Assembly: GCA_977862235.1 (NCBI GenBank)
Contig: OZ374563.1
Location: forward strand, 682,001 to 746,000
Length of the DNA: 64,000 nucleotides
Origin: Dudresnaya verticillata
Lineage: Eukaryota
Direction: 5' to 3'
Shown in pieces: positions 7,346 to 54,630 of the stretch; positions within the stretch are counted from its first letter, which is position 1, and the number at the start of each line of letters is the position of its first letter. Both the position numbers and the translations under genes were made by a program. The notes below the pieces were generated by a model, which ran no database searches, had not been told where the DNA came from, and saw only the letters and a program-made list of their open reading frames with translations.

Positions 7346-10300
7346 TTATCCGCGCTGGGCGTCCTCAATATTTGGAGCCAGGCGCGTGTGCTTCCGACGG
7401 TGGTACCGCACGGTGTGTGATCGCGGCAAACTGGACACGGGCTCCCAGGTGTTCGCTGAAGCGGGGTATCCAAACCACTTGACGCGGTAGAGGATCTCAC
7501 CATCATCCGCGTAGGCGTGCGACTCGATGCGTTCGATAACGTATTCTTTCCCGCTCACAGCGTTCGGCTTGGACCTGTGTCCTTCCAGCGCCTTTGGCGG
7601 TTCGTCTCGTTGCGTGATGGGCGTCTGGTCCGGTTCGGCGAAGCGTACTCGACGAGTTGATCGCCTGAGGCGTTGGCCGTGGGCCTCGGACGCTCGATCA
7701 GCGGTCAGTGGGTTGTTGCGTCTTGAGACAAGTTCATCGCTTGCAGCGCCGTGCTTCGTGCTTGCACGGTTAACGTCTTCGTTATCGGACGCGCTTTCAG
7801 CGGAGTCATTGTTCTCATTCGGCGGTGCCGTAGCGACGTGTTCCAAACGGGTGCGAACCCCTGGGGTATTGTCGTCGTTGGAGACGGATTGCGGAGCGCG
7901 GTCGTCGGGATCGGCAGCGAAGGGCCAAAGCTCTGCCAACCCACGGCTGCGTGACGCTGTGATCGTACGCTCTTGCGGATCTCTCGCAGTATGCGAAGTC
8001 TCTGCGTCCCCCTCCGGGTCCGCTGGTGGCGTGCTGGGGGTAGTCTTCCCTTCGTCTTGTGACGTGGGGGCGACTGCGTCCTGCTCCTCAGGCGGACCTG
8101 GTGGTACGACGATTGGAGGGGCCGCCTGACCCGGTGGGGTCGGCGCCCAGACCACGCGGTCTCGGTACAAACGTTCCCGCTCATTACGTCCCTTGTCGAC
8201 GGTTACTGTCTCGTTATCCACGTGAGTTACCCGATATGGGCCGTCCGCCACTGGCGCCAGCTTGTGCTTACGCTCTGCGCGATCCGTGCTCCCGCCGCGG
8301 GCGAAGTATTCCTTACGTACGAAGACGAAGTCGCCTATGGCGATTGATTCCTTCGATTTCCTTAATCGGGTATCGAAGTTTCGTTTGTAACGTGCTTGAG
8401 TTTTCTCTAACGACGCTTTAGCGGTTCCCATCAGTGCGGCCAACCAGGTTCGCCACTTGGTGTCGTATTGCCCCGCGGTGAGTACGCTTTCGAGCGAAGG
8501 TTCCGCTTCGAGCGACAGTGGGCGTGGTGGCTTAGACAGCACCAATTCAAACGGAGCGAGATGCGTAGACGAATGCAACTGTGTGTTGTATGCGAACGTC
8601 AAGGCATCCGTGAACAGATCCCAGTCTCTCGGATGATCCGCAACGTAGTGACGTAGCGAGGCCAGGATAGTTCGATTGAATCGTTCTGCCTGGCCATTGC
8701 ATTGCGGATGATATGTCGTGGTGAAGAGATTCTCCACTCCCAAAAGACGGCAGATATCCTGAAACAGCTTAGCCACAAACTGTGGTCCGTTGTCGGACAA
8801 CAATTTCTTGGGAGGACCGTACACGAAGACCCAATGTCGTACAAACGCCTTAGCGATTTCCAATGCCGTAATACTACGCAGTGGGACCGTCCGGACCAGC
8901 TTCGAGAAGCGGTCCACAATGACGAGTAGGAACTTGTTTCCTCGCTTCGTGCGTATGAGTTCGCCCAGGATGTCGATCGATACGAATTCGAGAGGCTCGG
9001 TTGCCGGGAACAACTTCAATTGCTTGGTGTTCTTTCGCAGCAATACGCGATTCTTAGCGCAGGTTACGCAGTTGCGGACGGTCGCGTAGCAGTCCACTGG
9101 CATCGATGGCCAATAGTATTCGCGTCGAAGCGTATGATACAACTTACGCCCCCCTGGGTGCCCTGCCAACTTGGCGTGGTGCCGGAGGTGGAGTAAGCGA
9201 GCGCGTAACGAGGAGGGTACGACCACTTGCGGACGGGCTTCCACCGTTCGGACCAACAGGCCCTGTTCATCCGTTGCGAACGGTAAGGTGACCCCGTCAT
9301 CAAGACGTTTCCGGACATCGTTACAGTAACTGTCATCGCCTTGGGCGTGTACCAACTCTTCATGCGTCACTTGACGAAGGAGTACCTCATCCGCCGGTGG
9401 CGTGTTGTTGATCAACACTTGGTCGAACTCTTCGAACTCGCGTTCGGCGAAGTCGACCTCGCCTTCGGCGTCTGACAGATCGTCTTGTGACGTTTGATGG
9501 CCGTCTTCGACGTAGCTTCCGTGATAGCACGGTATATCATCGTCAATGGGCTCGACGGTTTCTCCCTTCGTCTGTAGACGCGAAAGGGCATCTGCCTGAG
9601 TATTCAGGTACCCCTTTTTGTACTTCATGACAAAGTCGAACTCGGAAAGGCGAAGGCGCCACCGCATTAACCGTCCAGAGGGGTCGCTGATTTCCATCAG
9701 CCACCTCAATGACGAATGGTCCGTATGGACTGTGAACGACTCCATCTGGACGTAAGGTCGCAGCGTCACGACGGACCATACTACTGCGAGGCACTCCTTT
9801 TCGGAGACCGAGTAGTTACGCTCTGGAGCGGTGAGCGAGCGGGACCAGAAGCCGAGTGGCTTACGTTCCCCGCCTGGCTGCGTTTGAAAGAGAGCGCAGC
9901 CAACCTGATACTCGCTTGCGTCACAGTCGACGGAGTAGGGGAGACCCTGTTGTGGTAGCGCCAGCATAGGTGGATGAGTCACGGCCTCGAGGAGCGTACT
10001 GAACGCTTTGGCTTGTGTCTCATCAAACGGTGGTAACCGGAAGTCCTGTTCCTTCCTCAGCAACTTGTTGAGGGGGGCAGCGACGTGCGCGTATCGCGAG
10101 ACGAACCGTCGGTAGACGTTACAAAGACCGAGAAAACTCCGTAGCCCCTTCTGATCCCCTGGATGCTTGGCTTCGCGTAGCGCGGCAGTGACAGTTCGGT
10201 CAACTTCTAACCGTCCTGGACGTATGACGTGTCCTAAGTAGTTGACGGTCGGGGTGAAGAAGTCACACTTGGTCAACTTCAGAGTCACCCCGGCACGGTA

Positions 10301-12073
10301 CAATGTCGAAAGGATCTCGTCAACATGACGGAAGTGACTGTCGATGTCGCTGGAGAAGATTATTACGTCATCGAGGTAGACGATGCACGAACGCCACTTG
10401 TAACCAGCGAGCAGTATGTACAACGTTCGTTGAAACGTAGCGGGTGCGTTCGTGAGACCGAATGGCATACGCTTATAGCGGAACAGTCCGGCGTGGCACG
10501 TGAACGCAGTCTTATCGCGGTCTCGCGGATTGATCGGCACTTGCCAGTACCCACTGTTACAGTCTAGGGTGGTGAAGACGTTTGCTTCCCCTAGACTGTC
10601 GATGCATTCGTCGATACGCGGCAGCGGGTACGTGTCCCGTATGGTTACTGCGTTCAAACGACGGTAGTCTACGCAAAAGCGGAGGGTCCCGTCCTTCTTG
10701 GGGGCGAAGACCACTGGTGATGCCCACGGCGATTGTGCGGGTTCGATAACCCCTTGACGCAGCATGCGGTCCACTTCCGCTTGAGCGAGTTGCCTTTGCT
10801 TCGGCCCCGCTCGATAGGGCGGGGACGATATCGGTCTAGAGCCGGGAAGCAAGTCGATGTAGTGCTCTGTGGTTGAGATTTCTCCCAACGAACCGTCCCA
10901 CATAGACGAATACTTGCGCAACATCTCCTTAAGCCGGCCTTGATGCTCGGCGGGGAGTTGGCTCAGGTCCAAATCGTCTACAGACGGAGGTTTGGCAGTG
11001 GTTGCCTCGATAGACTTCGTGAAAGTATCCGGCTGCGCCGCAGTGTTATCGTTCGTTTGAAAACGGAAATCTTGGTTTGCCTTCTCCTCCTCGGCTTGTT
11101 CCTCCGTGAGGCCCAAAACATCGGCAAGACTTACGTGACTGGGGAACACTGCTGTCGGATGTGGTAACGCCGTCGCGGCGACTTGGCCTTTGGCCAGCGC
11201 CTGCGGGCGGGGAGAGAAGTTGGCAACCAGAATGCGAAACGCTTTTAGCGGCTCCACTTGAGCAATCCCGTTCGTAACGGCCAGACCTTGTTTGTCGTAC
11301 AGCGTTCCGAACGGTTGAATTGTGATGATGCCGGCGCGCTCGGTGGTCACCGATACCCATTGCTGCGCCTTAGGCGGGATGATCGCGCGCTCGGCGACTC
11401 GGATCTTGGGCGACGTCCTCCCCTCGGCCTTGCCGAATTCCTGTTCCGTTGGTAACGGAGGATACGACGGGGGTCGGCTCAGCGGGCGGCGCGTTATAGG
11501 GACACGAGTCCCGTCATCCAATTCAACCTCGCGACTTCGCGGATATATTGCTTCGACGAACCGGTCGCAAAAGTCACAGCCTAGTATCACCGGCGCAGCG
11601 AGTCGTTCGCAAACGATCAGTTCCAACTTGACGACTCTCCGTCCTAGACGAACGATCAGGTCGATGGTGCCTCTTGTCTGGATCGCCTTATTGTTGGCGT
11701 CGGCTATGACGGGGAGGCTCTTTGTCACGACGCGCGATCGCGCTTCCAGCGGAATGTCGTCGATGCGAATGAAATTCGGACCGGCCCCCGTGTCGAGGAC
11801 AGTGAGTTTACGTGCCAAGGTACTAACGGTTGCGCCCAAATCGGCGTACACCTTATAGTTCCTCTTGGCCATTACGAACAACTGCCCTCGCATTTGGGGG
11901 GGCTGGTACCTTCGCCATGGGCGTTTTAATGACGTCTGCGACGACTCTATCCGCCCGTTGGCGTCTTTTGTAACTAATTTCGGGCCCTCCTTCCGTGTCA
12001 GCACCCGAGGCCTAGGCCTCTCGTCGTGGTGCGACACCCCAGTGTCAGGTGTTGGTGCCCGAGTTAGTTTTTC
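7346..12073 (-). CDS. pol: Pol polyprotein (protease, RT, RNase H, integrase, chromodomain), entered by -1 frameshift
   Basis: LDTGAG protease, YLDD RT, DCDAS RNase H, HH..GHPG/CVTC zinc finger, DDE core and GPY motif. C-terminal chromodomain EYVIERI...YRVKWFGY...NTWEP. The frame is open from the slippery site at 12073. Confidence 0.97.
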   Translation of the reverse strand, partial: EKLTRAPTPDTGVSHHDERPRPRVLTRKEGPKLVTKDANGRIESSQTSLKRPWRRYQPPQMRGQLFVMAKRNYKVYADLGATVSTLARKLTVLDTGAGPNFIRIDDIPLEARSRVVTKSLPVIADANNKAIQTRGTIDLIVRLGRRVVKLELIVCERLAAPVILGCDFCDRFVEAIYPRSREVELDDGTRVPITRRPLSRPPSYPPLPTEQEFGKAEGRTSPKIRVAERAIIPPKAQQWVSVTTERAGIITIQPFGTLYDKQGLAVTNGIAQVEPLKAFRILVANFSPRPQALAKGQVAATALPHPTAVFPSHVSLADVLGLTEEQAEEEKANQDFRFQTNDNTAAQPDTFTKSIEATTAKPPSVDDLDLSQLPAEHQGRLKEMLRKYSSMWDGSLGEISTTEHYIDLLPGSRPISSPPYRAGPKQRQLAQAEVDRMLRQGVIEPAQSPWASPVVFAPKKDGTLRFCVDYRRLNAVTIRDTYPLPRIDECIDSLGEANVFTTLDCNSGYWQVPINPRDRDKTAFTCHAGLFRYKRMPFGLTNAPATFQRTLYILLAGYKWRSCIVYLDDVIIFSSDIDSHFRHVDEILSTLYRAGVTLKLTKCDFFTPTVNYLGHVIRPGRLEVDRTVTAALREAKHPGDQKGLRSFLGLCNVYRRFVSRYAHVAAPLNKLLRKEQDFRLPPFDETQAKAFSTLLEAVTHPPMLALPQQGLPYSVDCDASEYQVGCALFQTQPGGERKPLGFWSRSLTAPERNYSVSEKECLAVVWSVVTLRPYVQMESFTVHTDHSSLRWLMEISDPSGRLMRWRLRLSEFDFVMKYKKGYLNTQADALSRLQTKGETVEPIDDDIPCYHGSYVEDGHQTSQDDLSDAEGEVDFAEREFEEFDQVLINNTPPADEVLLRQVTHEELVHAQGDDSYCNDVRKRLDDGVTLPFATDEQGLLVRTVEARPQVVVPSSLRARLLHLRHHAKLAGHPGGRKLYHTLRREYYWPSMPVDCYATVRNCVTCAKNRVLLRKNTKQLKLFPATEPLEFVSIDILGELIRTKRGNKFLLVIVDRFSKLVRTVPLRSITALEIAKAFVRHWVFVYGPPKKLLSDNGPQFVAKLFQDICRLLGVENLFTTTYHPQCNGQAERFNRTILASLRHYVADHPRDWDLFTDALTFAYNTQLHSSTHLAPFELVLSKPPRPLSLEAEPSLESVLTAGQYDTKWRTWLAALMGTAKASLEKTQARYKRNFDTRLRKSKESIAIGDFVFVRKEYFARGGSTDRAERKHKLAPVADGPYRVTHVDNETVTVDKGRNERERLYRDRVVWAPTPPGQAAPPIVVPPGPPEEQDAVAPTSQDEGKTTPSTPPADPEGDAETSHTARDPQERTITASRSRGLAELWPFAADPDDRAPQSVSNDDNTPGVRTRLEHVATAPPNENNDSAESASDNEDVNRASTKHGAASDELVSRRNNPLTADRASEAHGQRLRRSTRRVRFAEPDQTPITQRDEPPKALEGHRSKPNAVSGKEYVIERIESHAYADDGEILYRVKWFGYPASANTWEPVSSLPRSHTVRYHRRKHTRLAPNIEDAQRG
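12025..12073 (-). promoter_or_regulatory. Putative -1 ribosomal frameshift signal
   Basis: G AAA AAC directly before the gag TAA, with pol in the -1 frame. Downstream GGCACC...GACAC-TGGG-GTGTC has stem or pseudoknot potential. Confidence 0.75.
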
Positions 12074-14637
12074 GACTGCGGCGGTGGTTGTGGCGCTTCA
12101 TAGCGGTTGATCATCGTCGGATGACGTTCTGCCGCGTGCGGCATGGGTCCGCCTCGTGGCGATTGTGGTCGTGCAGCACGGCGAGCAGCGTCGCGGGTCG
12201 CACGTTCTTTGCAACGTACATACGCATCAGCGGGGACACCAGCCTTCTCGGCTTCGGTTAGTCCTTCATAGTTGGTAATAACCTTCATGAAGTCGCTCAT
12301 GCGGAGGAAGCAGTCCGGCGCGATGTGGCCGCGGGCGTAGCATTGGTGGCATACCAGCTGCCGACGCGCGTCTTGACGGGGCGGGCCTCTGTCCTGCCAC
12401 CCGGGCCTTGCTCGGTGGACGTGAGGAGCATACTCGGAATAGGGGACGCGTGGCGCTGGCACGACCGAGCGCCCAAAGGCGAGAGCAGGGTCCATATCCC
12501 TTTCGTCCTCGTCATCGACGTAGCTGTCCGTTGGTAGGGCCGAGGTTGGCACCGACGCTTGCTCGTCTGCCAAGTACAAATCGCCTTCGGCGTGTGTTTC
12601 CATGTCATCGACAGGTCGACTAACGTCTCGGAACTCGATGGAGGACTCCGCTATCATAGCGCGCGCTCCAGGCTTGGCGCCTCTCGTCTGTGGACGCAGT
12701 ACCCCTCGGGCATCGCCGATGGCGGATCGCGGCGTGCGTACGGCTTGAGCCGGTGTCAGTAGGTCACGTCGCGCTGACGCGGAACCGGCTCTGCCGTGTC
12801 GTGCGCGGTTGGCATCCCCTTCGTCCTGTGCGAAGTGGACCAGCCGCTCAAATGACAACTCCGCCCTTGGCGTTTCTTCTCGGAAGCGAGCGACCAGAGA
12901 CCTGATCGACGGGTCTAACCCGTCGATGTACAGCGTCATCTTTTCCCAATCGGGATATACGTTACCGCAACGAATACACGCACCGGCTAGCCGCATCCCA
13001 TAGGTCGTCTCGTCCTCGCCTTGCTTTTGGGCAGTCGACCGTAGGGCGAGGACAGCGTCCCTGATCGCCGCTGGCGTAGCATACGTACGGAGGAGGTACT
13101 GTACCGCCTCCGGATACGAAGACACCCCGCCACGGTGGCGAGAAGATGTCGACTTGACGGAGCGGAATTGCGTGGCTGCCGTACCTCGCAAGAAGTACGG
13201 CAGCGCGACGAACGCTTGGGCTTCGCTCATCTCCAGCGTATCCGCTTCATCCGCGTAACGCGTCAGGAACTCGAGGACCATGACGGGGTCGCTGCCGTTG
13301 AAGGCGGCGTCCTTCATGGTCAGCTCCAAGCGCTTGATATGGTCTTTGACCTTACCCGTGTCGCGCCCTGAGCGTTTTTGCCCTACGTCTTTGAGACGGT
13401 ACGTCCTGTACGATAATAACTGATCGAAAAGGGGGTTGGAGGGGCGTAGCTCCTTCAACCCCTTGAACCGCTTTCCGCGAGGTCTTGCGGCACTGCCGAG
13501 AGTTGGGTAGTCGTCGTCTTCAGACGAAGAGTCCGATGACTCTCCGTCACTTGACGAGTCCGAAGACGATGAGGATGAGTCCCCTCGTCGATGACGATTC
13601 TTCTTCCGTCTCTGACGTAGCTTCCGACGGCGTTTCTTCCGGTCCTTACGTCTGTGACGATCTTCGCCTGAGCTCTCGTCACCTGACGGCGGACCATTGC
13701 GCCACTTGGCGGTTTCGAGACGCTCTAAGCGGGTCGCAAGTCGCTGAAAGCGTTCGCGTGAGCTAAGCTCAGAATGCGAATGAACCGAATGAACCGTTAC
13801 TGCCGGCGGTGGTTGTGTACCCTCGCCCTGGGCGTTTTGGTTCGTCAAGAGACGGTCGAGTTCGGAGCGTAGCCCTTGTAGGGCGCCGTTCCGATCCTCT
13901 TCCAACGTCTGTAGACGACTTGCGATTCCTCCGACACTGTCGTCCAGCAACCCGGCGAACCGAGCGAGCATCGCATCGTCCTCTAAGACGCACACCTCTC
14001 GGATCCGTTCGCGTGGTATCGTTAAGTTACTCACGCGGACGGCCGAGGGTGACGCCGTTGGCGGTTGGCTTTCGCAGTTGGACCGGTCGGGCGTCCCTTG
14101 CGCCCTTTGACTTGGCGAATTCGGCTTAGCCGGTGAACAACCGGCACTGCCGTGGGGAGTGGGGCAACATGCCCCGTGTGTCAAAGGTTCGTCACCGACG
14201 TTGCGCTCCGCGGAGCGCCCCTGTTCGTCGTTGACGTGGATGGTTGGTTGATCCGGAAGTTCCGGTTGTCCCGCGACGATGTCGGCTTGTGTTCCGTCTA
14301 CGACGTCCTGTTGCTCGGCTTGTACTGTATCAGCCGAGTCAACATAGGAGCGGTAGGTGCGGAGGGCCGATCCCTCGGGGACGGAGGTGCGGACGACGAC
14401 GGGGTTGTGGCGCGTCGGCGGGGGAGGTAACTCTCCTCCGTTGAGCGACGCGTGGGAGCCTGCGTGGCCATGGCCCGGGGGTAGCGTCGGGAACGCCGAC
14501 GCGATCTCGGGGCTCACGAGGCGCCCAGACCTCGTTGTCATCCGCTGTAGCGACCGTTCAGACGCGGGTACACTCCCAGGCGTCGAAGACGGTCTTCTTG
14601 AACTTGGGCCTCGCGACGGCGGCGGTCGTGAGGCCAT
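12064..14637 (-). CDS. gag: Gag polyprotein (857 aa)
   Basis: Long ORF just downstream of the PBS. Capsid-like region (FNGSDP...FL...QKQGEDETTYG) and CCHC knuckle CHQCYARGHIAPDC. Confidence 0.93.
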   Translation of the reverse strand: MASRPPPSRGPSSRRPSSTPGSVPASERSLQRMTTRSGRLVSPEIASAFPTLPPGHGHAGSHASLNGGELPPPPTRHNPVVVRTSVPEGSALRTYRSYVDSADTVQAEQQDVVDGTQADIVAGQPELPDQPTIHVNDEQGRSAERNVGDEPLTHGACCPTPHGSAGCSPAKPNSPSQRAQGTPDRSNCESQPPTASPSAVRVSNLTIPRERIREVCVLEDDAMLARFAGLLDDSVGGIASRLQTLEEDRNGALQGLRSELDRLLTNQNAQGEGTQPPPAVTVHSVHSHSELSSRERFQRLATRLERLETAKWRNGPPSGDESSGEDRHRRKDRKKRRRKLRQRRKKNRHRRGDSSSSSSDSSSDGESSDSSSEDDDYPTLGSAARPRGKRFKGLKELRPSNPLFDQLLSYRTYRLKDVGQKRSGRDTGKVKDHIKRLELTMKDAAFNGSDPVMVLEFLTRYADEADTLEMSEAQAFVALPYFLRGTAATQFRSVKSTSSRHRGGVSSYPEAVQYLLRTYATPAAIRDAVLALRSTAQKQGEDETTYGMRLAGACIRCGNVYPDWEKMTLYIDGLDPSIRSLVARFREETPRAELSFERLVHFAQDEGDANRARHGRAGSASARRDLLTPAQAVRTPRSAIGDARGVLRPQTRGAKPGARAMIAESSIEFRDVSRPVDDMETHAEGDLYLADEQASVPTSALPTDSYVDDEDERDMDPALAFGRSVVPAPRVPYSEYAPHVHRARPGWQDRGPPRQDARRQLVCHQCYARGHIAPDCFLRMSDFMKVITNYEGLTEAEKAGVPADAYVRCKERATRDAARRAARPQSPRGGPMPHAAERHPTMINRYEAPQPPPQSKN

Positions 14638-15220: not shown

Positions 15221-16041
15221 TGTAGCAGTATGGAAGCGGCCAGAAACAGCAAAGAACAAGAAAAGACAGCTGTCCGATGCCACACGCTAATGTGTGGTAG
15301 CTCGAGGGAGGATTGGTAGAGGCTTGGAAAAGGCGGGCCCTGATGACCCGAAAGGGGGGGTGCGGAAGCACGGTAAAGACTCGGCGCGACCGACTGAAGG
15401 AAAGTATAGAGGTTGCGACCCGGTGTTTTGTAGAGTACTTGTCGTACGATGTCTGGGCCTGTACTGGGCGACCCCTGCAGGCGCGGAGCGTCCGAGCGAC
15501 CAAAAGGTGGAAACTTCCCGAACAACTCCGCTGAGTGTTTATTATGAGGGCGCCGGCTATTCCGGCGCCCATAAGCAGGGCTTGACAGCCGAAAAGTCTA
15601 TCAGCCCGAAAGGGGGTCTAAGTTAGTCTGTGATTATAGATAAAAAGGTCAGTAATGTCATTACAAGTCAAAAGTGGGAATGTATTCCAGTTAGGGGACT
15701 TGGCGGCGGATGTGCCGGTGTGCATGACGAGGTCCCGGCTGCACTGTCGATAACCTGAGCGCAGAGGTGCTCCTCGTCCGTGAGTAGGAGCGCAGCGGCG
15801 CGTCATAAATCAGCCAATACGGGGTGTCCAACTGGCGCCATTACAATGCCACGTGTACGCCCCGTGTATAGCTGCACGTCCACGTGTACAGCTGTAAGTC
15901 CACGTGTACACACGTGTATTCCACGTGTCATCCACGTGTACAGCGATGAAAGGACAGCTGTCCTGATTAAGGGACAGTTTGTCCCGCGAAAAGGAAGGCG
16001 CTCCTGTCAGCCCTGCTGCTGACAGCGTCCATACTGCCACA
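15221..16041 (-). mobile_element. Solo LTR (821 bp)
   Basis: TGT...ACA ends with an imperfect 23-bp terminal inverted repeat (19/23). 5-bp TSD CTGTG at 15216-15220 and 16042-16046. Interrupts the old integrase-chromodomain linker. Confidence 0.9.
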
Positions 16042-36344: not shown

Positions 36345-38793
36345 GTTTGAGGAAGCGTTGAGCGGTGTTGCTTTTCTGTTTTTTTTGTTTTCGGTCTTTT
36401 GTGAGACGGCGTGGCGCGGCGGTTCGGTACGGTGCGCCGCGGACGGCTTCGGCTTCGGGTCGGCAATTTCGGATGCGGCGGCGCGGCGCTCGGCAATCGG
36501 CGAGTGGTGACGGCGGCGTTGGCGGTGCTGCTGCGCGCTTTATGCGGAAGCGGCGGGCGGGAGGCTCCGACCGGGCGGACGAACGGCTCGCGGGGAGCTT
36601 GCGGAGACCAGCTGCGCCAAAGTATTCGAAACAGTAACAGAGTCAACAGCGGCCGCCTCTCGCGCGGGCACAGCGCAAGCTGTTCAAACGCAAAGCGGAA
36701 GCGAAGCGGCGCGGGCGCGGTCCAAGCGCAAGCGCGCGGCAGCGTCCGTCAGGCGACCGTCCGCGCTCGCAGTCTCTGAATCGCGCGGTGTTTACGGGAG
36801 CGCCTCTGCGTGCGTGCGTGCGAGCGTGCGAGCGTGCGCGCGGGCGGGCGGGCGGGTTCGGCGGCGGGAGCGGGCGTATCGGCGGCGGCGGGCGGGCGGG
36901 CGGGCGTCGCCCGCGCGCGCTTAAGACGGCCGAGCCACGGCGGCCTCGGCACGGCCGCGGCGGCCCCGCGGTGAAACGGAAACGGCGCGCGCTGCATTCT
37001 CGTTGGTCCGAACGGGCGCGCAGCAGGCTGCCGTTACATTGCTGCATGACGCGGCGCGGTGGCGAGATGCCGCCTGGAGCGCGCGGTGCTGCCGAATCAC
37101 ATGCGCGTTATATTGGCCGTCGGTCGCTGCCGCATATACGCAGCAGCAGCACCCTCGTGCTCGCATATGCGGTCCATCGCCGCGCGCCGCGTGCTTGCGC
37201 TGAGCGTGACGTGTCCGTGGCCGCTGGCTGTCCGCGCAAACAGCCCTATTTAGGGTTTGTGCCGCGACGCGCCCACCTCTGAAAGCGGCACGTGCCCCTT
37301 GCACAGTGCAGTTGTACACGGGGGATGCTATAATATCAGCATTCGAGCCCAACATTCAGCATCAGCGCCCAGTGCAGTCTTGTTTATGGGCGCTCGATCA
37401 TGTCACGCGTGACTGCCAACCCGATATTCAGCATAACGCGAGTAACGCGATCCTTGATCCCGATCCCAATTGTTCAACTGCAGTGCAGTAGCATTGTGTA
37501 GCATTGCTCGCCTCGCTACAAGACCTTTTCGTCAAGCTTGTACCGTATGATAACAAAGGGCTAGGTTAGGTTACTCGTTTCGGCAGCCAATTCCAAAGCC
37601 TTTTGGCTGCCTGTTTTCTAGACGCTCTATAGCTTTTGTGGGCCGACCGCTTGGTGCGCTTGCACATTCCGTCTTTAACAAAGTCGCCTCGAGATATCAA
37701 CTGCGGGCCAGTTCGACCTGCAACGACAATATCTGTCATTTAACTTTTAACATCCGGCACACGTAGTACTGCCGTTCTCTACTGCACAATACAACTGGTC
37801 AAGGTCAATGCCGTCGGCGCTGCAGCCATCGCGGAGGAGCCCCCCGTCCTAGTTCCGTCCATTATACCGCTTGTGCAACGCTTTGCATTGCCATGTTAAA
37901 GCGCATCCTCACATGCCACCGTCATTATAGCTTTCTGCAAACCGCCTGGTGCACTCATTATATTTGGCTCACCGTCACCGCCTACATTCCACTGCACACC
38001 TGTAAACTACCAGGAACAGGCGAGGAGACAAGGAGAGGACAAAGCGAAAAGCAGAATCGAACCAAAAACACTTTGCAGCTTCTGGCCGTGTGGATAGCCT
38101 TGCCGTCGATAAGGATACCCAAGCGTATCTGAAGCAGCCGCACAGTATGAGTACTGTGCTGCAGCTGCTGCAGGGGCAGTAACGTCTCTCTCTGTCTTTA
38201 GGTATACACCTTCCGGCAGTCCTTCTCTCACGCCGCATGTCACCCTTTGCTCGCAACGCAGTGCCCCAAATGCCTGCATCCATCGCAATCCACATGCTTC
38301 TGTAAACCACCTCCCTACACAACCTGTCTCATACACGCACACAACACGCTCCCCACCATTTGTTGTTAAAAGATAAAGAAGATCAAGCTCAGCTTGCCTC
38401 GCCGCTGTTCTCGCTGAGCACATGCGAAAAGCCAATCCGAACAAATCCAATCGCAACTCTATCTCTCTGATCTCATGCCAAAACCAATTCAACTTTAGCA
38501 AAACATTCCAAAATCCTCCAGTTTTTCCAATTTTCCCTCTTCCACTGCTTACACTACTTTCAACTGTCAGCCCCTCTATTCTCCCCATCCGATCGACCTT
38601 GTCGATGCCCATCCCAGCAACCAGCATTAGCGCCCGCCCACCTTGCCATCAATTCCGTCATTCTGCCCATCCACCAAACGTTTTCTTTAGCGACCTTGTC
38701 AATTCCCAACATCCTCAAACACAATCCACTCCTCCTCAGCTCCTGCCCACGCGCGCAACCTCTTACTTTAGTCACCACGCACCGCGGGCGCCA

Positions 38794-39588
38794 ATGCTAC
38801 GACAAGCACTTTCGGTCGCGCGCCGCGCCGCCGCGCTCTCGCCGCAGCCAACGCGTGCGCCGCCGTCATCGTCGCGCCGCCACGCGTTTTCCGCCACGCG
38901 CCCGGCATTCGCGGCCGGGCTCAACGTGCATCGCGACTCGCCGGAGAACACGCATGACACCCCGTTCGACTTCACGGATGACAACTATGAGAAGATCGCC
39001 GTGATCCTCAAGCGCTTCCCGAAAAACTATGCCGCGTCGGCGGTCATCTCGCTGCTGGATCTCGCGCAGCGCCAAAACGGAGGCTGGCTCCCGTTGGCCG
39101 CCATGAACAAGGTTGCCAAGCTGCTTGACATGGCCCCGATTCGTGTTTACGAGGTGGCTAGCTTCTACACCATGTTCAACCGCGAAAAGGTTGGCAGGTA
39201 TAATGTCCAGGTTTGTACCACTACTCCTTGCATGCTGCGAGGTGGCTATGACATTTTGGAGGCCGTCAAGGAGCATCTTGGAATTGACGTTGGTGGTGAT
39301 ACGGACGATGGCTTGTTTCATCTCATGGAGGTTGAGTGCCTTGGTGCGTGCGTGAATGCTCCCATGGTGCAGATCAACGATCACTATTACGAAGATCTCA
39401 CAAAAGAGACGGTCAAGTCTGTCCTCTCAGATATCAAGGCTGGAAAAGCTCCCAAACTTGGACCGCAAGTCGACAGAAATGGATGTGAGGGTCCCCAGGG
39501 GCGCACCTCACTCCGCAGCGAGGCACGCGGACCGTTCTGTCGAGACTTGGCAGCACTAGCTGCGGAAGCACAGGAAAAGGGAAGCTGA
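38794..39588 (+). CDS. NDUFV2: Complex I 24-kDa subunit (NuoE) with a mitochondrial presequence
   Basis: [49 protein letters not shown] and [12 protein letters not shown]. Confidence 0.97.
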
Positions 39589-39707
39589 GAGGTATCCAAT
39601 TTTCTTAGAAGGATATTATCAAGAAGCTCACTTGTAAACCTAAAGCGTCTAGCATCGGAATACGTCTCCTGCGAGCCTGGCATCGCGCCCCTGTCGCACT
39701 ACTGCAA

Positions 39708-41250
39708 TCAAACATTGACAGCCTTTGCAGCTTTCGCTGCGTTCTCTGCTTGCTCGGCAGCGGCAATATCGTCGGGTATTGTCGTCCGTTCTACTGCAGA
39801 AACGACATCTTCTGACAAGCCTTTGGTGAGCCATTCCGGTTGCGGTAAGCCCTTCTCGGCTAGAAACGGAGGATTGAAAAGCTTGCCTGTGTATCGGGTT
39901 CCCAAGTCGCACAAAACCGTGACTATGTTATGCCCTGGACCCAGCTCCTTGGCAAGTCGCATTGCCCCGGCAATGTTGATTCCTGACGAAGTTCCTAAAC
40001 ACATGCCCTCTTCCTGCATGACCTGGTAGACAATATCCAAAGCCTATATCAAAATGATGAGAAACGAAACGGGATGTATGTTAGCTGTACCGCAATTCGC
40101 AGTTGTAGATTTCGATGTTTGCCTCAAGATGGCGCTCGGTAGCTTACCTCCTGATCGGGGATCTCAAAGGCATAGTTCGGTTTGAAACCCTCGAGGTTGC
40201 CCGTGATGCGACCCTGCCCAATTCCCTCGGTAATGGAACCGCCCTCCGCCTTGAGCACGCCCTCATTGTAGTAGCGCACCAACTTGGCACCACAAGGGTC
40301 CGTAAGCGCAATCTTAACCGTATCACTCTTGCTCCGCAAAAACTCGGCAGTTCCCGCTAGCGTACCGCCAGTCCCAACGGCGCAGCTAAAGCCGTCAACC
40401 TTGCCGGCAAGCTGAGCCCAAATCTCCGGACCGGTAGTAGCGACATGGGCGGCACGATTCGCAGTGTTGTCAAACTGGCTGGTGTAGAGGGCACCAAGTT
40501 CCTTTGCGAGGCGGGCGCCGTACTTGACGTAGTTGTTCGGGTTGGTGTACGGCTTGGCAGGGACCTCGACCAGCTCGGCACCTGCGTAGCGCAGGGCGTC
40601 CTTCTTCTCCTGCGACTGGGTCTTCGGAATGACAATGACGCACTTGTATCCCCGCGACGCGGCGACCTCCGCCAGACTGATGCCCGTGTTGCCCGCGGTA
40701 GACTCGACGATTGTGCCGGGCTCTCCCGGCGTAAGCAAGCCGCGCTCCTCCGCGTCCTTCACCAGGTACAGCGCGGCGCGCGCCTTGACAGACCCGCCCT
40801 GCGCGAGGGTGACGAGATATCATCCCAACACAAGCGAGGAAGCGAGCGAGCGATAGGGAGAGGGCGACAGAGTCAGTACGGCACAAGATCGGGGTCAAGC
40901 ACGGACGCGCGCTCGCGCGCGCGGCGGACAGCGCGCGCACGTACCGGGTTCATAAACTCGGCCTTGCCGTAGATATTGCAGCCGGTCTCGCGCGACGCGC
41001 GCTGCAGACGGATGAGCGGGGTGTTGCCAATGGCGTCCGCCATGCCGTCGTACACGTTGTCGGCGACAACGCGGCGCGGCGGGAACGGGCGCGGCGGCGG
41101 CGGGGGCGGTGGCGCAGCCATGGCGGACGCGCGGCGCGGGCGCGGGCGAGCGCGGCGGCGGCGGCGTGCGGGTAGCACGTGCGGTAGGACGCGGGCCCTG
41201 GACAGCAGCGGCAGCGGCAGCGGCGGCGACGGGAGGAAGCACGCGGGCAT
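39708..41250 (-). CDS. Cysteine synthase (PLP-dependent), likely organellar; exons 41250-40945, 40798-40148 and 40043-39708
   Basis: IGNTPL, KAEFMNP|GGSVK, STAGNTG, GTGGT, EGIGQG and GTSSG motifs. Two introns (GTACGT..CAG and GTAAGC..CTAAC..TAG) splice in frame. Confidence 0.93.
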
Positions 41251-42479
41251 CGGCGGGCGGGCGTCGCGACGCGGGGGCTTCTCCCGCGCGCGGGGCGAAA
41301 CGTTTTCGCGCGCGTGGATTGAGATGCAGCAGCAGCGGGTGATGCCGCCTGGCGGGCGCGCGCGCGGCCGCGCGGCGTGGCGGATCTGATCGCCGCGCGT
41401 GGGGGCCGCGTGTGGAAGGCGGGCGCGACGCGCGCAGCAGCGAGCCGAGTTGCGAGCGAGAAGTTTCGAAAAAAGTGCAACGCTTCAACGGCGGGGGCGG
41501 CGCGGGCGCGGGCAAATCTGGTGCTCGGAGATATGCGCCGCGGGGTGTCCGAAATCACGATCTGTTGCGCTGGTGCTTGCGGAGGGGGCGACAAAAGGGC
41601 CAAGCGCCAAGCCCGGTACCGAGTTCCACCTGGGCGTGCGCGCTATATCAACTCGACCGACGCGCGCTGTCCGCTGTTCTTGTCCGCCGCGCCGCAACCC
41701 GCCCTCTTCAACTTGCTGATGCGTGCTACCCGCTTTGCTACGGCGGCACCGCCCCGCGATGTCGAGGCGCGCAGCGTGATGGCTTCTCGTCAGAGTAAGT
41801 CGGGCGTGCAACGCGTGTTCTGCCGCTCTCCGTCGCCCACCAACTCCGCGGCATCGCGCCACACAGCGACTGGCGGGTCTGCTCGACTGCGTTCATAGTA
41901 TCGACGTTTAATGCACAAAAGCTGTTTCGAATCTGTTCTGCTACTTGATCAATGCGTACTCAGGGAAAAAAAGAGTCTCTGATGCTAAGATACCGAAGCG
42001 CAACAAACAATGCAACAGCCGGGATGACAAGGACACCGGGGCGACGCAAGCGCACAACAATGAAAGACAAAAACCCGGGATCCAAACAAAACAAAAAAAG
42101 GTCTGCACCACACAAAGGTACAGCCCTGCTCAAATGGTACAAACAACGGCCAACCACAGCAGGTTACCCACCACACCTGCTCCTCTTCTCGCAACCCAAA
42201 CCTCACCAAAACCTTCACTCGTCACTAATGTACATGTTGGTGGAAAGTCGTATTCCAGAACCTTGGCACTGTCGATGTGCCCAACGCATTCTGCTTGCTT
42301 TCCTTTCCGATTTGCCGTATGCATAATATTCTTCCCTCGTCACCATCGTGGCCTTCTTCCGTCTGTGCAAAAGCCAACCGTGTCTCTCTCTTCGTCAACG
42401 GCCACGACCTGCCATGGAGAAAAAGAACAACTGCCTATGAAATGATCACAAACATTGGAATGCATTCTTAATGTTTTCC

Positions 42480-50162: not shown

Positions 50163-50948
50163 TTACTGCGGAAGTTGTCCTGGGTATAACTTGGCAAGGC
50201 GTGGGGGATTGGCCTTGATAAAGTTTGTCAACAGGCGGATCACTTCCTTGCCGATTTCGTCAACAGGTTGATCGGGTTTAATGCTCACAGTGACGTCTGC
50301 TTGCTCGTACAGGTGGCGACGCTTTTCCAATATCGACGAGACCCTTTCCGTCAGATCATCAGCATTGGCCAACAGAGGTCTCCCTGTGTCGCCCTTGAGG
50401 CGATCAACGAGCACACCAACTGGAGCCTCTAGATACACAACGATACCCGTCTGCATCTTCCCCCAATTTTCCTGACGCAACACAGCGCCACCCCCAGTTG
50501 CGATGGAGCAACCAATAAAAGCTTGTACATGGTCAAGGATAGCTGATTCAATGTCTCGAAAAGCTTCTTCTCCGCTCTCCTCGAATATCTCTGGAATACT
50601 CTTCTTTGCAACCTGCTCGATGAGATCATCTGTGTCAAGAAATCTAAAGCCCAGTTCAAATGCCATGTACTTGCCGACAGCGCTTTTCCCACTGCCCATG
50701 GGACCAACCAAAAAGATCGAGCACTTTTTCAGGACACTTCGAAGTTCCTTAACTGCTGGCTTCAAGTCACGCTGGGGCTGATTTCGATTTGAAGCCTGGC
50801 TGTAGACCCGCAGGTGAGCATGCCGAGATATGGCCCTCTGCTGAATACGCCGACTGGGGAGAGCGCGTCTGCAAACGGATGCATCACCCCATGCTGATGC
50901 GCTCCCCTTCGATGGAAGTGCAACAGCGTTAACAAAACCTGTTGACAT
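50163..50948 (-). CDS. Shikimate kinase, plastid-targeted
   Basis: LVGPMGSGKS, FLDTD, GEEAFRDIE, ATGGG and RPLL motifs. MSTGFV transit-peptide start. Confidence 0.95.
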   Translation of the reverse strand: MSTGFVNAVALPSKGSASAWGDASVCRRALPSRRIQQRAISRHAHLRVYSQASNRNQPQRDLKPAVKELRSVLKKCSIFLVGPMGSGKSAVGKYMAFELGFRFLDTDDLIEQVAKKSIPEIFEESGEEAFRDIESAILDHVQAFIGCSIATGGGAVLRQENWGKMQTGIVVYLEAPVGVLVDRLKGDTGRPLLANADDLTERVSSILEKRRHLYEQADVTVSIKPDQPVDEIGKEVIRLLTNFIKANPPRLAKLYPGQLPQ

Positions 50949-51424
50949 TGTCCAAAGGTATTTTTTGTTCCCTCTCCTGCGGCTGTGTCCGCGATGTGTA
51001 ACAACCGCTAACGGGTCCACCTCCTCGGCAGCCGAGTGACACAGAAACAGAAGCTTTTCGCGCGATGGGGAGGGCAGATTCGATACTCTTTATTGTATGC
51101 CAGAGAGGGAGCTCGAGGAAATAATCTGCCAAAAAATAGGGTTGTCCAGTCCTTGCCCCAGGAGCAGGCTGAAGATTGCTCCCACACTCGCCACGCCGTT
51201 AAGTTGACTCGCAGCTGCAGTCATTCAGGTGTCGTGAATGCCGAACGAAGAGTGTGAAAAGACCATTTCCGGGTTGTACTGTAGCAGCGAGTGTGGTGAC
51301 AACGCGTTTGCACTGAACACGCAACCCTGTTGCCAAGTACCGCTTACCGCTGCAACGACAACAGACCGAAACGGGTCGGCAGTATCACAGTTGTCCTGAA
51401 AGCAGAGCGCAGACGGCCTTTGTA

Positions 51425-52210
51425 ATGTCAACCGCAACAGAGAGAAAAACGAAGAGGGCCCCACAAACAGAAGATCTACCAACAACCAAACGATTGCGTG
51501 CCGACTCTAAAGCCGGAGCCATGGACGGCGCAGTGGCCGGTACCGAAATATCGCGTGGAGCTGAGGCAGTTGTTTCACGCCTTCCCTATCTGGGCCGTCT
51601 TGCGGTGTGGAAGAAGCGTTTTGCGAAGCGCTACCGACACCCCGAATTGGACTCAAAGCTGACCTCGAGAAGGCTGCAGCAGGAAGCACGTATTTTGCTG
51701 CGCTTGCGCAAGGCAGGCATTCGAGTGCCGGCTGTTTATCATGTCGATCTGAAGAACAGTGTCATTATCATGGAGCATTTGCCGGGCATGACGCTCAAAG
51801 CGTTTTTGCAACGCGCGGAGGGTGATCAGACGGGAGACGCGATTATGCGAGAGGCAGGCAAAGAGGTAGCCAGAATGCATCGTTGCAAAATTGTGCACGG
51901 AGACCTCACAACTGGAAATATCATGGTCTTGTCAGGGCCGCAAACTGGTGCGAACGACAAAACGGAAGGGGAACCTCTAACGGTATGCATCATAGATTTC
52001 GGGCTTAGCAGTGGGAACGGGACAGAGGAGGATATGGCCGTGGATTTGTACGTATTTGAAAGAGCGGTGATCTCAGCGCACTCTGAGTCAGCAAAGCCGC
52101 TGAACGATGCGTTTTTGTCGGCATACGCTCAGGAGCTGAACATGCCCGCCGTGATGAAACGGTTGGCGGAGGTGCGATCCAGAGGGCGCAAGCGCGACAT
52201 GACCGGGTGA
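51425..52210 (+). CDS. BUD32: KEOPS complex kinase Bud32/TP53RK
   Basis: GAEA, KRFAKRYRHPELD, HGDLTTGN, IDFGL, AVDLYVFERA and a C-terminal RGRKRDMTG. Confidence 0.96.
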   Translation: MSTATERKTKRAPQTEDLPTTKRLRADSKAGAMDGAVAGTEISRGAEAVVSRLPYLGRLAVWKKRFAKRYRHPELDSKLTSRRLQQEARILLRLRKAGIRVPAVYHVDLKNSVIIMEHLPGMTLKAFLQRAEGDQTGDAIMREAGKEVARMHRCKIVHGDLTTGNIMVLSGPQTGANDKTEGEPLTVCIIDFGLSSGNGTEEDMAVDLYVFERAVISAHSESAKPLNDAFLSAYAQELNMPAVMKRLAEVRSRGRKRDMTG

Positions 52211-52360: not shown

Positions 52361-53011
52361 CTACTTCGATTCAGTTGCGTCTACTACGGCTTCGGGCTCG
52401 TCCTCTTCGTCAGAAGTGGAGGCACCGGAGCCAAAGTCCATATCCTGGAGGTCCTTGTTGTCAGCAAACTGGGAACCGAAGGAGTATTCGTCGTCATCCT
52501 CGTCCTCATCCTTCCAGTTGTCCCAGTCAACCTTGCAGTGGACATTACGACCCTCCGGTTTCAGGAGGCGATCCCAGTACGGGCCACTGTCAGCCTTGAT
52601 GATTTTGAAGAAGACCGAGCGGGCCGTGATCTTCGATTTGCTCTGATCGGCCTTGACCGGCTTGAAGAGCGTAACATCCAGCATATAGTCTTCCTCGTGA
52701 CCAACGTTGCCGCCCGGCCCCTTGAAGTAGACATGGCCGTCATCCGTTAGCTTGATCGTGGCCTCATCCTTCTTCACGTTTGGCACGTTGATGGTCAGGT
52801 ATATCTGATCCTTCCGCTGAGCCCAGAGGAACTCTGGAGTGAGCGCGGTCGGTCTGTCGGAGGACGACATAGCACAGCAGGCACGTAGGGCGCAGTGGAC
52901 AAGTAAGGCGGGTCAGCACTTGGATTGCTTGCTAATGCACAAGGATGCTTGTTCACTTTGAGCGCGTGAATATCCGAACTAGGAAAGTACAAGGCAGAAG
53001 ACGTACCCCAT
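52361..53011 (-). CDS. HSP90 co-chaperone p23 (Sba1/PTGES3 family); probable exons 53011-53007 and 52853-52361
   Basis: PEFLWAQR, YWDRLLK, KVDWDNWKDED and an acidic tail. ATGGG|GTACGT...CTGAC...CAG splices in frame (MGPTALTP). An unspliced ATG at 52870 is the alternative start. Confidence 0.92.
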
Positions 53012-53289
53012 GTCAGTTGCTTGAGAATTTGTGAGGCACGCGGAGCGTGATAGGCTCGATGAGGGTGGTTGGTCGCGATTGCGGTCGTCTGAAGAGTAGC
53101 AGCTTACTTGGGGGGTACGGCGCTTCGCGAGGACGTCGTCAAAGGCCCAACAGCTGGAGGATTGCGAATGCGTTGTGGAACGGGTGAACGGGGGGGGGGG
53201 GGAGTGGACACGACTGGGCGCTTGTGTGCGGCGAAGCGTCGGCAACTTAAAAACTCGGATCTCGATCGGAAAGAACCGGCAAATTCGGC

Positions 53290-53410
53290 GTTGGACGTCG
53301 GAATCGAGCCAAGGACGTGGCGACACGTTGCCACGGGCAACACGTGGCGATACGTCGCCACTGCCACGTGGCGATACGTCGCCACGTGGCACAGATCTAT
53401 CTAGAAACAC
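53290..53410. promoter_or_regulatory. G-box/ACGT cluster in the p23-AHA1 divergent promoter
   Basis: Three CACGTG (53341, 53365, 53383), eight ACGT cores and a duplicated CACGTGGCGATACGTCGCCAC. Confidence 0.7.
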
Positions 53411-53613
53411 CGCGACTGCATAGTCGACGCCCCAGCCGCCCCACAGCGCCACGCCCCGTCGTCACATTTTTGAGCGGGCACGGCACCGCGTTCGGCGCAG
53501 TGCTCGCCGCCAATTTCGTTCCGCACACTGCAACTTTCTACCGTCCGCTCCGCGCAGTTCGCCGCATCCACTCTGTCGTCGTAGCCGCCAGCCCTACCCC
53601 GCCCCCATTCGCA

Positions 53614-54630
53614 ATGGCCCTGCAAGGCGCCGGCGACCCGCGCTGGGTCGTGCGCGAGCGGCAAGACGGCCGCAACGTCAACAGCTGGCACTGGGAGGAC
53701 AAGGACGTCTCCTCATGGGCGCAGACACGCATCCGTCAGCTGCTGACCTCGGAAGTGTGCACAGCGTCTGCGGGCGACGTGGCGGTCGCAGTGGAGAACG
53801 TTGACGGCGTGGACGGCGACGCCACGCTGTACAATCGAAAGGGCGTGCTCAAGGTGCTGTACGACCTCAAGATCTCCGGCAAGTGGAGCACGTCACACGT
53901 CGACAAGGACGCTCGCACGACTGGCGAGTATAAGTTTGAGCTGTTCGACGAGGAGCCAGATGTGTTGGTGATGCTGGACATCAAGTCCAAGGCCGAGCAT
54001 CGCTTCAAGGTGCTCTTTGCGGACAAGGTGGCCCCGTTGATCCGCTCGCAGTGCCAAATTTTCATCCGCGAGATGCACGCCGGGGCGGGGCAGGCGCTGG
54101 ACGGCGTGTCGGTGCCCGAGAAGAAGGAAAACTTGTCGGAGACCAAAGTGACAGACTATTTGCGTTCTGGGATGGATCAGGCTGCCAAACCAGTGAAGAA
54201 GGCGTCGGTGGTGGGGGGCGCGTCGCTGGAACTGAGAGATGTGTTCACGTGCAGCGCACAGGACATGTTTCTGGGGCTGACGGACCGGGCTCGGCTGGAG
54301 GCGATCACTCGGGCACGGGCGCTGTCGGAGGCAAAGGTGGGCGGGCGGTTCAACCTGTTGAACGGGGCGGCGCGCGGGAGCTACACGGCGCTGGTGGGCG
54401 GGAAGCAAGTGGGGATGACGTGGAAGTTGAAGACTTGGGGTGACGAGGCGGGCGAGGCGGAGGTGGACGTGGGTTTGAGCGAGGAGGAGCAAGGACGAAC
54501 GACGGTGGTGGTGCGGATCCGTGGGGTGCCCGCTGAGCACAAGTCAGCTACAGAGGGGTTTTGGCGGGTGCAGATTTTCCAGGCGATGAAAGTTGTGATG
54601 GGATGGGGCAGCGCGGCGCAATTTTTGTAG
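53614..54630 (+). CDS. AHA1: Activator of HSP90 ATPase
   Basis: GDPRWVVRERQDGRNVNSWHWEDKD, NRKG and a C-terminal AHSA1/START-like domain. Confidence 0.95.
   Translation: MALQGAGDPRWVVRERQDGRNVNSWHWEDKDVSSWAQTRIRQLLTSEVCTASAGDVAVAVENVDGVDGDATLYNRKGVLKVLYDLKISGKWSTSHVDKDARTTGEYKFELFDEEPDVLVMLDIKSKAEHRFKVLFADKVAPLIRSQCQIFIREMHAGAGQALDGVSVPEKKENLSETKVTDYLRSGMDQAAKPVKKASVVGGASLELRDVFTCSAQDMFLGLTDRARLEAITRARALSEAKVGGRFNLLNGAARGSYTALVGGKQVGMTWKLKTWGDEAGEAEVDVGLSEEEQGRTTVVVRIRGVPAEHKSATEGFWRVQIFQAMKVVMGWGSAAQFL

What the first reader, a model, noticed from the sequence alone, without database searches (positions are those of the whole stretch)
52361..54630. Two HSP90 co-chaperones, p23 and AHA1, head-to-head on a shared G-box-rich promoter
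Seen: divergent starts ~600 bp apart around a palindromic cluster (GCCACGTGGC twice, GTGGCGA-TACG-TCGCCAC twice). Only a partial HSE-like TCTAGAA (~53400) is present. Known: AHA1 stimulates and p23 inhibits the HSP90 ATPase cycle. Inference: a bidirectional co-regulated module like HSP60/HSP10, possibly driven by G-box factors. I do not know of this pairing being described.
Basis: partly seen in the sequence, partly recalled or inferred. Interest (0 to 1): 0.7.

Follow-up and report, generated by a model that had tools for sequence, protein, structure and literature searches.

The report
Hsp90 accelerator and brake genes paired
In this red seaweed the genes for Aha1 and p23, the usual accelerator and brake of the chaperone Hsp90, sit head-to-head 602 bases apart; the pairing appears to be kept in dozens of related seaweeds, so the two likely share one promoter, though shared control is untested.

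Summary
A p23 gene (minus strand, one short 5' intron) and an AHA1 gene (plus strand) start 602 bp apart, around a cluster with two perfect GCCACGTGGC boxes. The genome is a florideophyte red alga. The linkage is conserved: 34 of 76 red-algal AHA1 records share an exact contig length with a p23 record (chance mean 0.24), the Gracilariopsis chorda genes have consecutive accessions, and a distant locus (L006, AHA1 33% identical) is head-to-head too, with the same 13-mer TGCCACGTGGCGA between the genes. No linkage was seen in Bangiales-like or Cyanidiales sequences; the Bangiales-like AHA1 loci mostly carry a perfect heat-shock element instead. Against a regulatory reason: an unrelated neighbour pair of this window (cysteine synthase/NDUFV2) is also adjacent in G. 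chorda; p23 but not AHA1 is on the G. chorda rhythmic-gene list; orientation was read from DNA in only two loci, the motif also in only two. Best reading: an old head-to-head co-chaperone pair of the HSP60/HSP10 kind, likely on a shared promoter; G-box/bZIP control is a lead. My literature searches found no report of the pairing.

The parts
52361..52853 (-). p23 (Sba1/PTGES3-type co-chaperone), main coding exon with stop; CS domain plus acidic tail
   Evidence: Pfam CS; PDB matches to p23/Sba1; alignment with 21 red-algal homologues
52854..53006 (-). Predicted 153-nt phase-2 intron of p23, GTACGT...ACAG
   Evidence: Sequence; the spliced start MGPTALTPEF matches Eucheuma transcript protein P0109 MGPTSLTPEF; no RNA from this genome
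53007..53011 (-). Predicted first coding exon of p23 (ATG GG)
53012..53613 (.). 602-bp spacer between the two start codons; candidate bidirectional promoter and both 5' UTRs
   Evidence: Sequence; transcription starts not mapped
53315..53391 (.). Palindrome cluster: three 24-27-bp-spaced related units (75-82% identical to the first), seven ACGT cores at 53315, 53325, 53342, 53352, 53366, 53376, 53384
   Evidence: densest ACGT window of the 64 kb
53362..53391 (.). 30-bp inverted repeat holding both perfect G-boxes GCCACGTGGC (53363-53372, 53381-53390); its 13-mer arm recurs exactly in L006
53393..53407 (.). Degenerate HSE-like string (three alternating units, two mismatches); not above window background
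53614..54630 (+). AHA1 (activator of Hsp90 ATPase), single exon, 338 aa, Aha1_N + AHSA1 domains

Best explanation
The genes for the Hsp90 co-chaperones p23 and Aha1 lie head-to-head here, the pairing appears to be old and kept across florideophyte red algae, and it is likely kept because both genes draw on one shared upstream region, in which a palindromic G-box would be one of the control sites. Shown: gene identities by domain and structure-database matches, the divergent layout in this window and in L006, consecutive accessions in G. chorda, the G-box in both complete spacers.
For: (1) 34 of 76 red-algal AHA1 records have exactly the same longest-contig length as one of 79 p23 records; shifting the lengths by 962 offsets gives mean 0.24, maximum 4; 14 of the 34 contigs are 10 kb or shorter, the smallest 3,620 bp. 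Distances among the paired AHA1s and paired p23s agree (Spearman 0.71, 0 of 999 permutations), as expected if each pair comes from one organism. (2) G. chorda: AHA1 PXF44098.1, p23 PXF44099.1; Agarophyton chilense: CAN8073282.1 and CAN8073280.1, both on a 31,386-bp contig. (3) L006 has p23 on the opposite strand, ATG at 447, AHA1 ATG at 1955, and lies in a deep clade outside the Gracilariales/Gigartinales group in which three more records are paired. (4) The other neighbour is not kept: downstream of AHA1 lies a CDK inhibitor here, a ubiquitin hydrolase in L001 and a PSMD8/CSN8-family gene in L006; none of the 9 named G. chorda genes among PXF44082-44119 seen in the table matches a named gene of this window. 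(5) GCCACGTGGC, chosen beforehand from the finding, is in the L006 spacer (p <= 0.002 by 1000 shuffles); the shared word is 13 nt, reached by 11 of 500 shuffles; among 81 loci (253 kb) the 10-mer occurs in only 3, the other two being one shared site about 3 kb upstream of AHA1, inside an APC10 reading frame.
Against: Cysteine synthase and NDUFV2, adjacent in this window (38377-41484), have consecutive accessions in G. chorda too (PXF46675/6; orthology assumed from the labels), so unrelated neighbours also survive at that depth; no background rate could be measured at the depth of L006. In the G. chorda day-night table p23 is listed (lower-confidence 'general-rhythm' class) and AHA1 is not among the 3,098 rhythmic genes. 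30 of 64 AHA1 records on contigs of 3 kb or more have no exact partner; 7 are Bangiales- or Cyanidiales-side, one is L006 itself, one is off by 1 bp, the rest are unresolved, including Chondrus crispus and Gracilaria domingensis, whose p23 I did not recover. Orientation is read from DNA in 2 loci only. The L006 spacer is 1.5 kb with a single G-box; the three-unit cluster is not conserved. L001 has no G-box in the 495 bp available but has a five-unit HSE-like array with two mismatches.
Confidence: 0.55

Rival explanations
1. Passive microsynteny: the genes became neighbours by chance in an early florideophyte and stayed so because short gene-dense spacers are rarely broken; each has its own promoter.
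For: The unrelated cysteine synthase/NDUFV2 pair is also adjacent in G. chorda; AHA1 is absent from the rhythmic list that holds p23; Cyanidiales and Bangiales-like algae do without the linkage.
Against: The pair reaches the deep clade of L006 while the downstream neighbour differs in all 3 florideophyte loci read; window genes map to scattered G. chorda accession blocks (PXF4409x, PXF4667x, PXF42335 or PXF47567); a shared 13-mer in the spacer; the two proteins act on the same machine.
Confidence: 0.25
2. Shared promoter, but driven mainly by heat-shock factor through degenerate HSEs; the palindrome cluster is a local inverted/tandem duplication without special function.
For: AHA1 loci L002, L003, L004 carry a perfect three-unit HSE about 410 bp upstream (3 of 4 Bangiales-like loci; L005 has none); L001 has a five-unit array and L006 two one-mismatch triples; the cluster is made of near-repeats. 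HSEs are described in red-algal Hsp20 promoters (PMC8966773, passages).
Against: This window has only two-mismatch triples, at background frequency; the exact G-box with flanks is shared with L006, with a further ACGT 14-15 bp before it in both.
Confidence: 0.2

Closest known systems
HSPD1/HSPE1 (HSP60/HSP10) head-to-head pair
   Same: Non-homologous genes of one chaperone system, divergently transcribed with a short spacer, conserved over long times (fungi, choanoflagellate and metazoan groups in PMC2871058, passages).
   Different: HSP60/HSP10 are stoichiometric subunits of one machine with a tested bidirectional promoter (Hansen et al. 2003, seen only as a reference). Here the pair is two regulators with opposite effects on Hsp90, the chaperone itself is not in the pair, the range is one red-algal class, and no promoter test exists.
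p23/Sba1/PTGES3 and Aha1/AHSA1 co-chaperones
   Same: Domains and best structure matches. Aha1 accelerates, Sba1/p23 slows the Hsp90 ATPase cycle (PMC4980810, passages).
   Different: Linked here; apart in C. merolae (contigs of 908,485 and 1,232,258 bp). The Aha1 RKGK stretch reads RKGV here and in 48 of 76 red-algal records.
Plant G-box (CACGTG; extended form GCCACGTGGC, bound by bZIP factors; recalled, not from a call)
   Same: Exact sequence match, twice here and once in L006.
   Different: No binding factor identified in red algae by any search here; the same core fits other bZIP/bHLH sites.

Membership tests
p23/Sba1 co-chaperone | CS domain whose nearest solved relatives are p23 proteins rather than SGT1/NudC | tested here: met
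   Pfam CS 38.6 bits over cut-off 21.3; top 5 of 6 PDB matches are p23-type, SGT1 last at E 2e-4
p23/Sba1 co-chaperone | W-x-R-L and DW-x-x-W-x-D motifs followed by an acidic tail (motif wording recalled) | tested here: met
   YWDRLL and VDWDNWKDEDE align with human WPRLT / VDFNNWKD; W93, L96, D109, W110, W113, D115 invariant in 22 sequences
p23/Sba1 co-chaperone | Binds closed ATP-bound Hsp90 and slows its ATPase | not testable with these tools
   Family knowledge only (PMC4980810)
Aha1/AHSA1 | Aha1_N domain followed by AHSA1 domain | tested here: met
   full-length match to human AHSA1 and yeast Aha1
Aha1/AHSA1 | N-terminal NxNNWHW and RKxK motifs (recalled as functional motifs) | tested here: inconclusive
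   NVNSWHW present; RKGK reads RKGV as in 48 of 76 red-algal records; effect unknown
Aha1/AHSA1 | Stimulates the Hsp90 ATPase | not testable with these tools
   Family knowledge only
Conserved bidirectional-promoter pair (HSP60/HSP10 type) | Head-to-head with a spacer under about 1 kb | tested here: met
   602 bp ATG to ATG here; 1.5 kb in L006
Conserved bidirectional-promoter pair (HSP60/HSP10 type) | Adjacency conserved in distant relatives | tested here: met
   background rate not measured
Conserved bidirectional-promoter pair (HSP60/HSP10 type) | Correlated expression of the two genes | tested here: inconclusive
   G. chorda table gives values for p23 only
Conserved bidirectional-promoter pair (HSP60/HSP10 type) | One promoter region drives transcription both ways | not testable with these tools
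   Needs start-site mapping and a dual reporter
Perfect heat-shock element | Three contiguous inverted nGAAn units | tested here: not met
   Only two-mismatch triples in the spacer, background 1.56 per kb; definition from PMC8966773
G-box regulatory element | CACGTG core, enriched and conserved upstream of the genes | tested here: inconclusive
   Enriched here; present in 1 of 1 other complete spacer; absent from 495 bp of L001 and from the 1 kb upstream of 4 unlinked AHA1 loci tested
G-box regulatory element | Bound by a bZIP factor and needed for expression | not testable with these tools
   none

The most novel reading that the evidence does not exclude
Florideophyte seaweeds have hard-wired the timing of the Hsp90 cycle into the genome: for some 600 million years the accelerator Aha1 and the brake p23 have been made from one bidirectional promoter at a fixed ratio, switched by a conserved palindromic bZIP site that took over from the heat-shock element used by unlinked AHA1 genes in Bangiales.
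Probability: 0.25. Interest if true: 0.75.

Novelty: new member of a known kind. Interest (0 to 1): 0.55.

Why it matters
Long-lived head-to-head pairs of unrelated genes are rare in eukaryotes and tend to mark real functional coupling. A pair of opposing Hsp90 regulators would suggest that their ratio, not their separate levels, is what selection guards, a point open to test. Almost no cis-element is known in florideophyte seaweeds; this spacer offers a short natural promoter with a candidate conserved site, useful for stress biology and transgene work in farmed red algae.

Tried and rejected
No whole genome is held for this window, so no genome-wide motif or neighbour background. No sequencing run was listed, so nothing on expression or start sites in this organism. 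The records behind the loci could not be searched further. Scans of prokaryote genomes and viral contigs added no red-algal locus. Of 80 metagenome loci only L001 and L006 are florideophyte by the tree; 79 p23 queries hit L006 alone. The unspliced p23 start (MSSSDRPT, ATG 52871) was set aside because the Eucheuma transcript protein supports the spliced start; it is not excluded. TCTAGAA as an HSE: not above chance. p23 and STI1 day-night profiles in G. chorda agree at r = 0.99, but 7 of the 11 other rows I compared also exceed 0.9 (GRP94 and six unrelated or unnamed genes), so this was not counted (13 rows picked). A GTGGC[AG]A motif is enriched here and upstream of Cyanidioschyzon-type AHA1 but not in L001 or L003: left as a lead. 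Three-way alignment of the spacers shows no block common to all three. No complex or fold prediction was run: the report does not claim that p23 and Aha1 bind each other. Literature: searches found no report of this pairing (listings only); PMC2871058 has no occurrence of aha1, p23 or hsp90 in its main text (its supplements not read); searches gave no nuclear microsynteny rate for florideophytes. Most subscription papers are not searched.

Full report
Observation. The window comes from a florideophyte red alga: the best named AHA1 relatives are from Eucheuma, Chondrus and Gracilariales at 58-62% identity, and the tree puts the window's protein in a 14-row starred clade with Eucheuma and Chondrus (quick tree). 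AHA1 runs 53614-54630 on the plus strand without introns and has both Aha1 domains. p23 runs on the minus strand to a stop at 52361, has a CS domain and matches p23/Sba1 structures first. Its start is best placed at 53011 with a 153-nt intron after five bases; a Eucheuma transcript protein starts the same way. The starts are then 602 bp apart. The palindromes are as described: GCCACGTGGC at 53363 and 53381, the only exact copies in the window, and the 18-mer at 53344 and 53368. They form three related units and one 30-bp inverted repeat, far beyond shuffles, centred 354 bp from the p23 ATG and 249 bp from the AHA1 ATG. The HSE-like string is not above chance.

Conservation of the pairing. First, the protein database reports the longest contig on which each protein was seen. 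Of 76 red-algal AHA1 records and 79 red-algal p23 records with such a length, 34 match exactly, against a mean of 0.24 and a maximum of 4 over 962 shifted comparisons. Left out beforehand: records without a contig length, hits I judged not red-algal (P0050-52, P0103-104, P0152 onward), and 14 further listed members of one AHA1 cluster on contigs under 3.5 kb. Three of the 34 belong to one 90% cluster. 14 contigs are 10 kb or less. Distances among paired AHA1s and paired p23s correlate (0.71; 0 of 999 permutations). Second, accessions: G. chorda PXF44098.1/PXF44099.1 are consecutive, A. chilense CAN8073282.1/CAN8073280.1 two apart on one 31-kb contig. Third, DNA: locus L006 has p23 head-to-head with AHA1, starts 1.5 kb apart. 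On the tree, paired records fall in Gracilariales, in the Gigartinales-containing clade, in several unnamed clades beside them, in an unnamed sister clade to all these, and in the deep unnamed clade of L006, which branches after Hildenbrandia. If that clade is Nemaliophycidae, which I infer from position only, the pairing is about 660 million years old (PMC4759575, abstract). Hildenbrandia contigs are too short to test. In C. merolae the genes lie on different contigs; Cyanidioschyzon-type loci L016 and L019 have no p23 in 6 kb upstream, and the Pyropia-like L003 none in 5.4 kb. Seven other eukaryotic loci with 6 kb upstream (L060, L061, L063, L065, L067, L069, L074) also lack it. 30 of 64 AHA1 records on contigs of 3 kb or more stayed unpaired; most are unresolved rather than shown apart, among them Chondrus and G. 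domingensis, whose p23 I did not recover. One near-identical AHA1/p23 couple is paired in one assembly (P0046/P0086) and on separate short contigs in another (P0121/P0107), which suggests that assembly breaks explain some misses.

Is it more than background? For: the gene downstream of AHA1 differs in all three florideophyte loci read (CDK inhibitor here, ubiquitin hydrolase in L001, PSMD8/CSN8 family in L006), and window genes map to scattered G. chorda accession blocks (only the genes in a rhythmic-gene table could be seen, 14 of 38 ids around the pair). Against: cysteine synthase and NDUFV2, adjacent here, are consecutive in G. chorda as well, so unrelated neighbours survive at that depth. 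No background rate was obtainable for the depth of L006.

The spacer. L006 holds one GCCACGTGGC (p <= 0.002), within a 13-mer identical to the arm of the window's inverted repeat (11 of 500 shuffles reach 13), 658 bp from AHA1 and 850 bp from p23. Both have another ACGT 14-15 bp before it. The 10-mer is in 3 of 81 loci, the other two being one site inside a coding frame. It is absent from the 495 bp available in L001 and from the upstream kilobase of four unlinked AHA1 loci. HSEs point to a second input: perfect in 3 of 4 Bangiales-like loci, degenerate in L001 and L006, at chance level here. The multiple copies in this window look like a local expansion of one older site (inference).

Expression. 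The G. chorda day-night study (PMC10853006; passages and supplementary Table S1 rows) lists p23 as dusk-phased in its lower-confidence class and does not list AHA1 among 3,098 rhythmic genes. That is mild evidence against tight co-expression: the list is a thresholded subset and gives no values for AHA1. No run was listed for this genome.

Mechanism. Aha1 accelerates and p23 slows the Hsp90 ATPase cycle (PMC4980810, passages). The most likely reading is that a chance juxtaposition in an early florideophyte came to share upstream control sites, after which separation cost one gene its regulation; a symmetric G-box bound by a dimeric bZIP factor (recalled plant knowledge) could act both ways and keep the two regulators in step. 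Gene identity, layout and linkage are shown or strongly inferred; shared control is inferred (0.55 overall); passive microsynteny (0.25) and HSF-driven sharing with an incidental palindrome (0.2) are the rivals.

Comparison and novelty. It works like HSP60/HSP10, a conserved divergent chaperone pair (PMC2871058, passages), and meets the layout and conservation criteria but not yet the promoter test. It differs in pairing two opposing regulators without the chaperone. Searches found no description; subscription journals and the supplements of PMC2871058 were not seen. Earlier notes of this scan held nothing on this pair. Verdict: real, conserved, a new member of a known kind; interest 0.55.

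Noticed in passing
window 15848-15940: A second ACGT cluster: six CACGTG copies, mostly CCACGTGTA, just outside a Ty3/gypsy chromovirus-type element (RT, RNase H, integrase, chromodomain at 7349-12097); perhaps part of its LTR or promoter. The window's only perfect three-unit HSE is near 15510.
   Followed up: no
window 38377-41484: NDUFV2 and cysteine synthase lie tail-to-tail; the like-named G. chorda genes are consecutive (PXF46675/6) and have similar day-night profiles (r = 0.96).
   Followed up: partly
window 53836-53850; red-algal AHA1 proteins: The RKGK stretch of human Aha1 reads RKGV in 48 of 76 red-algal records, RKGK in 5; effect on Hsp90 activation unknown.
   Followed up: partly
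L002:944-958, L003 and L004 about 418 bp upstream of AHA1: Perfect three-unit heat-shock element upstream of Bangiales-like AHA1, followed by repeated CGCCACGC words; the window has one such word at 53447.
   Followed up: partly
L081:4001-4700: An intron-containing, eukaryote-type AHA1 N-domain gene inside a record titled as a bacterial MAG chromosome; probably eukaryotic contamination of that assembly.
   Followed up: partly
window 53107 (minus strand): A GTAAGC donor-like site about 100 bp upstream of the p23 ATG may mark a 5' UTR intron.
   Followed up: no
window 50166-52210: Shikimate kinase (minus) and a Bud32/RIO-type kinase (plus) form another divergent pair just upstream, about 570 bp apart: divergent pairs are not rare in this gene-dense stretch.
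   Followed up: no
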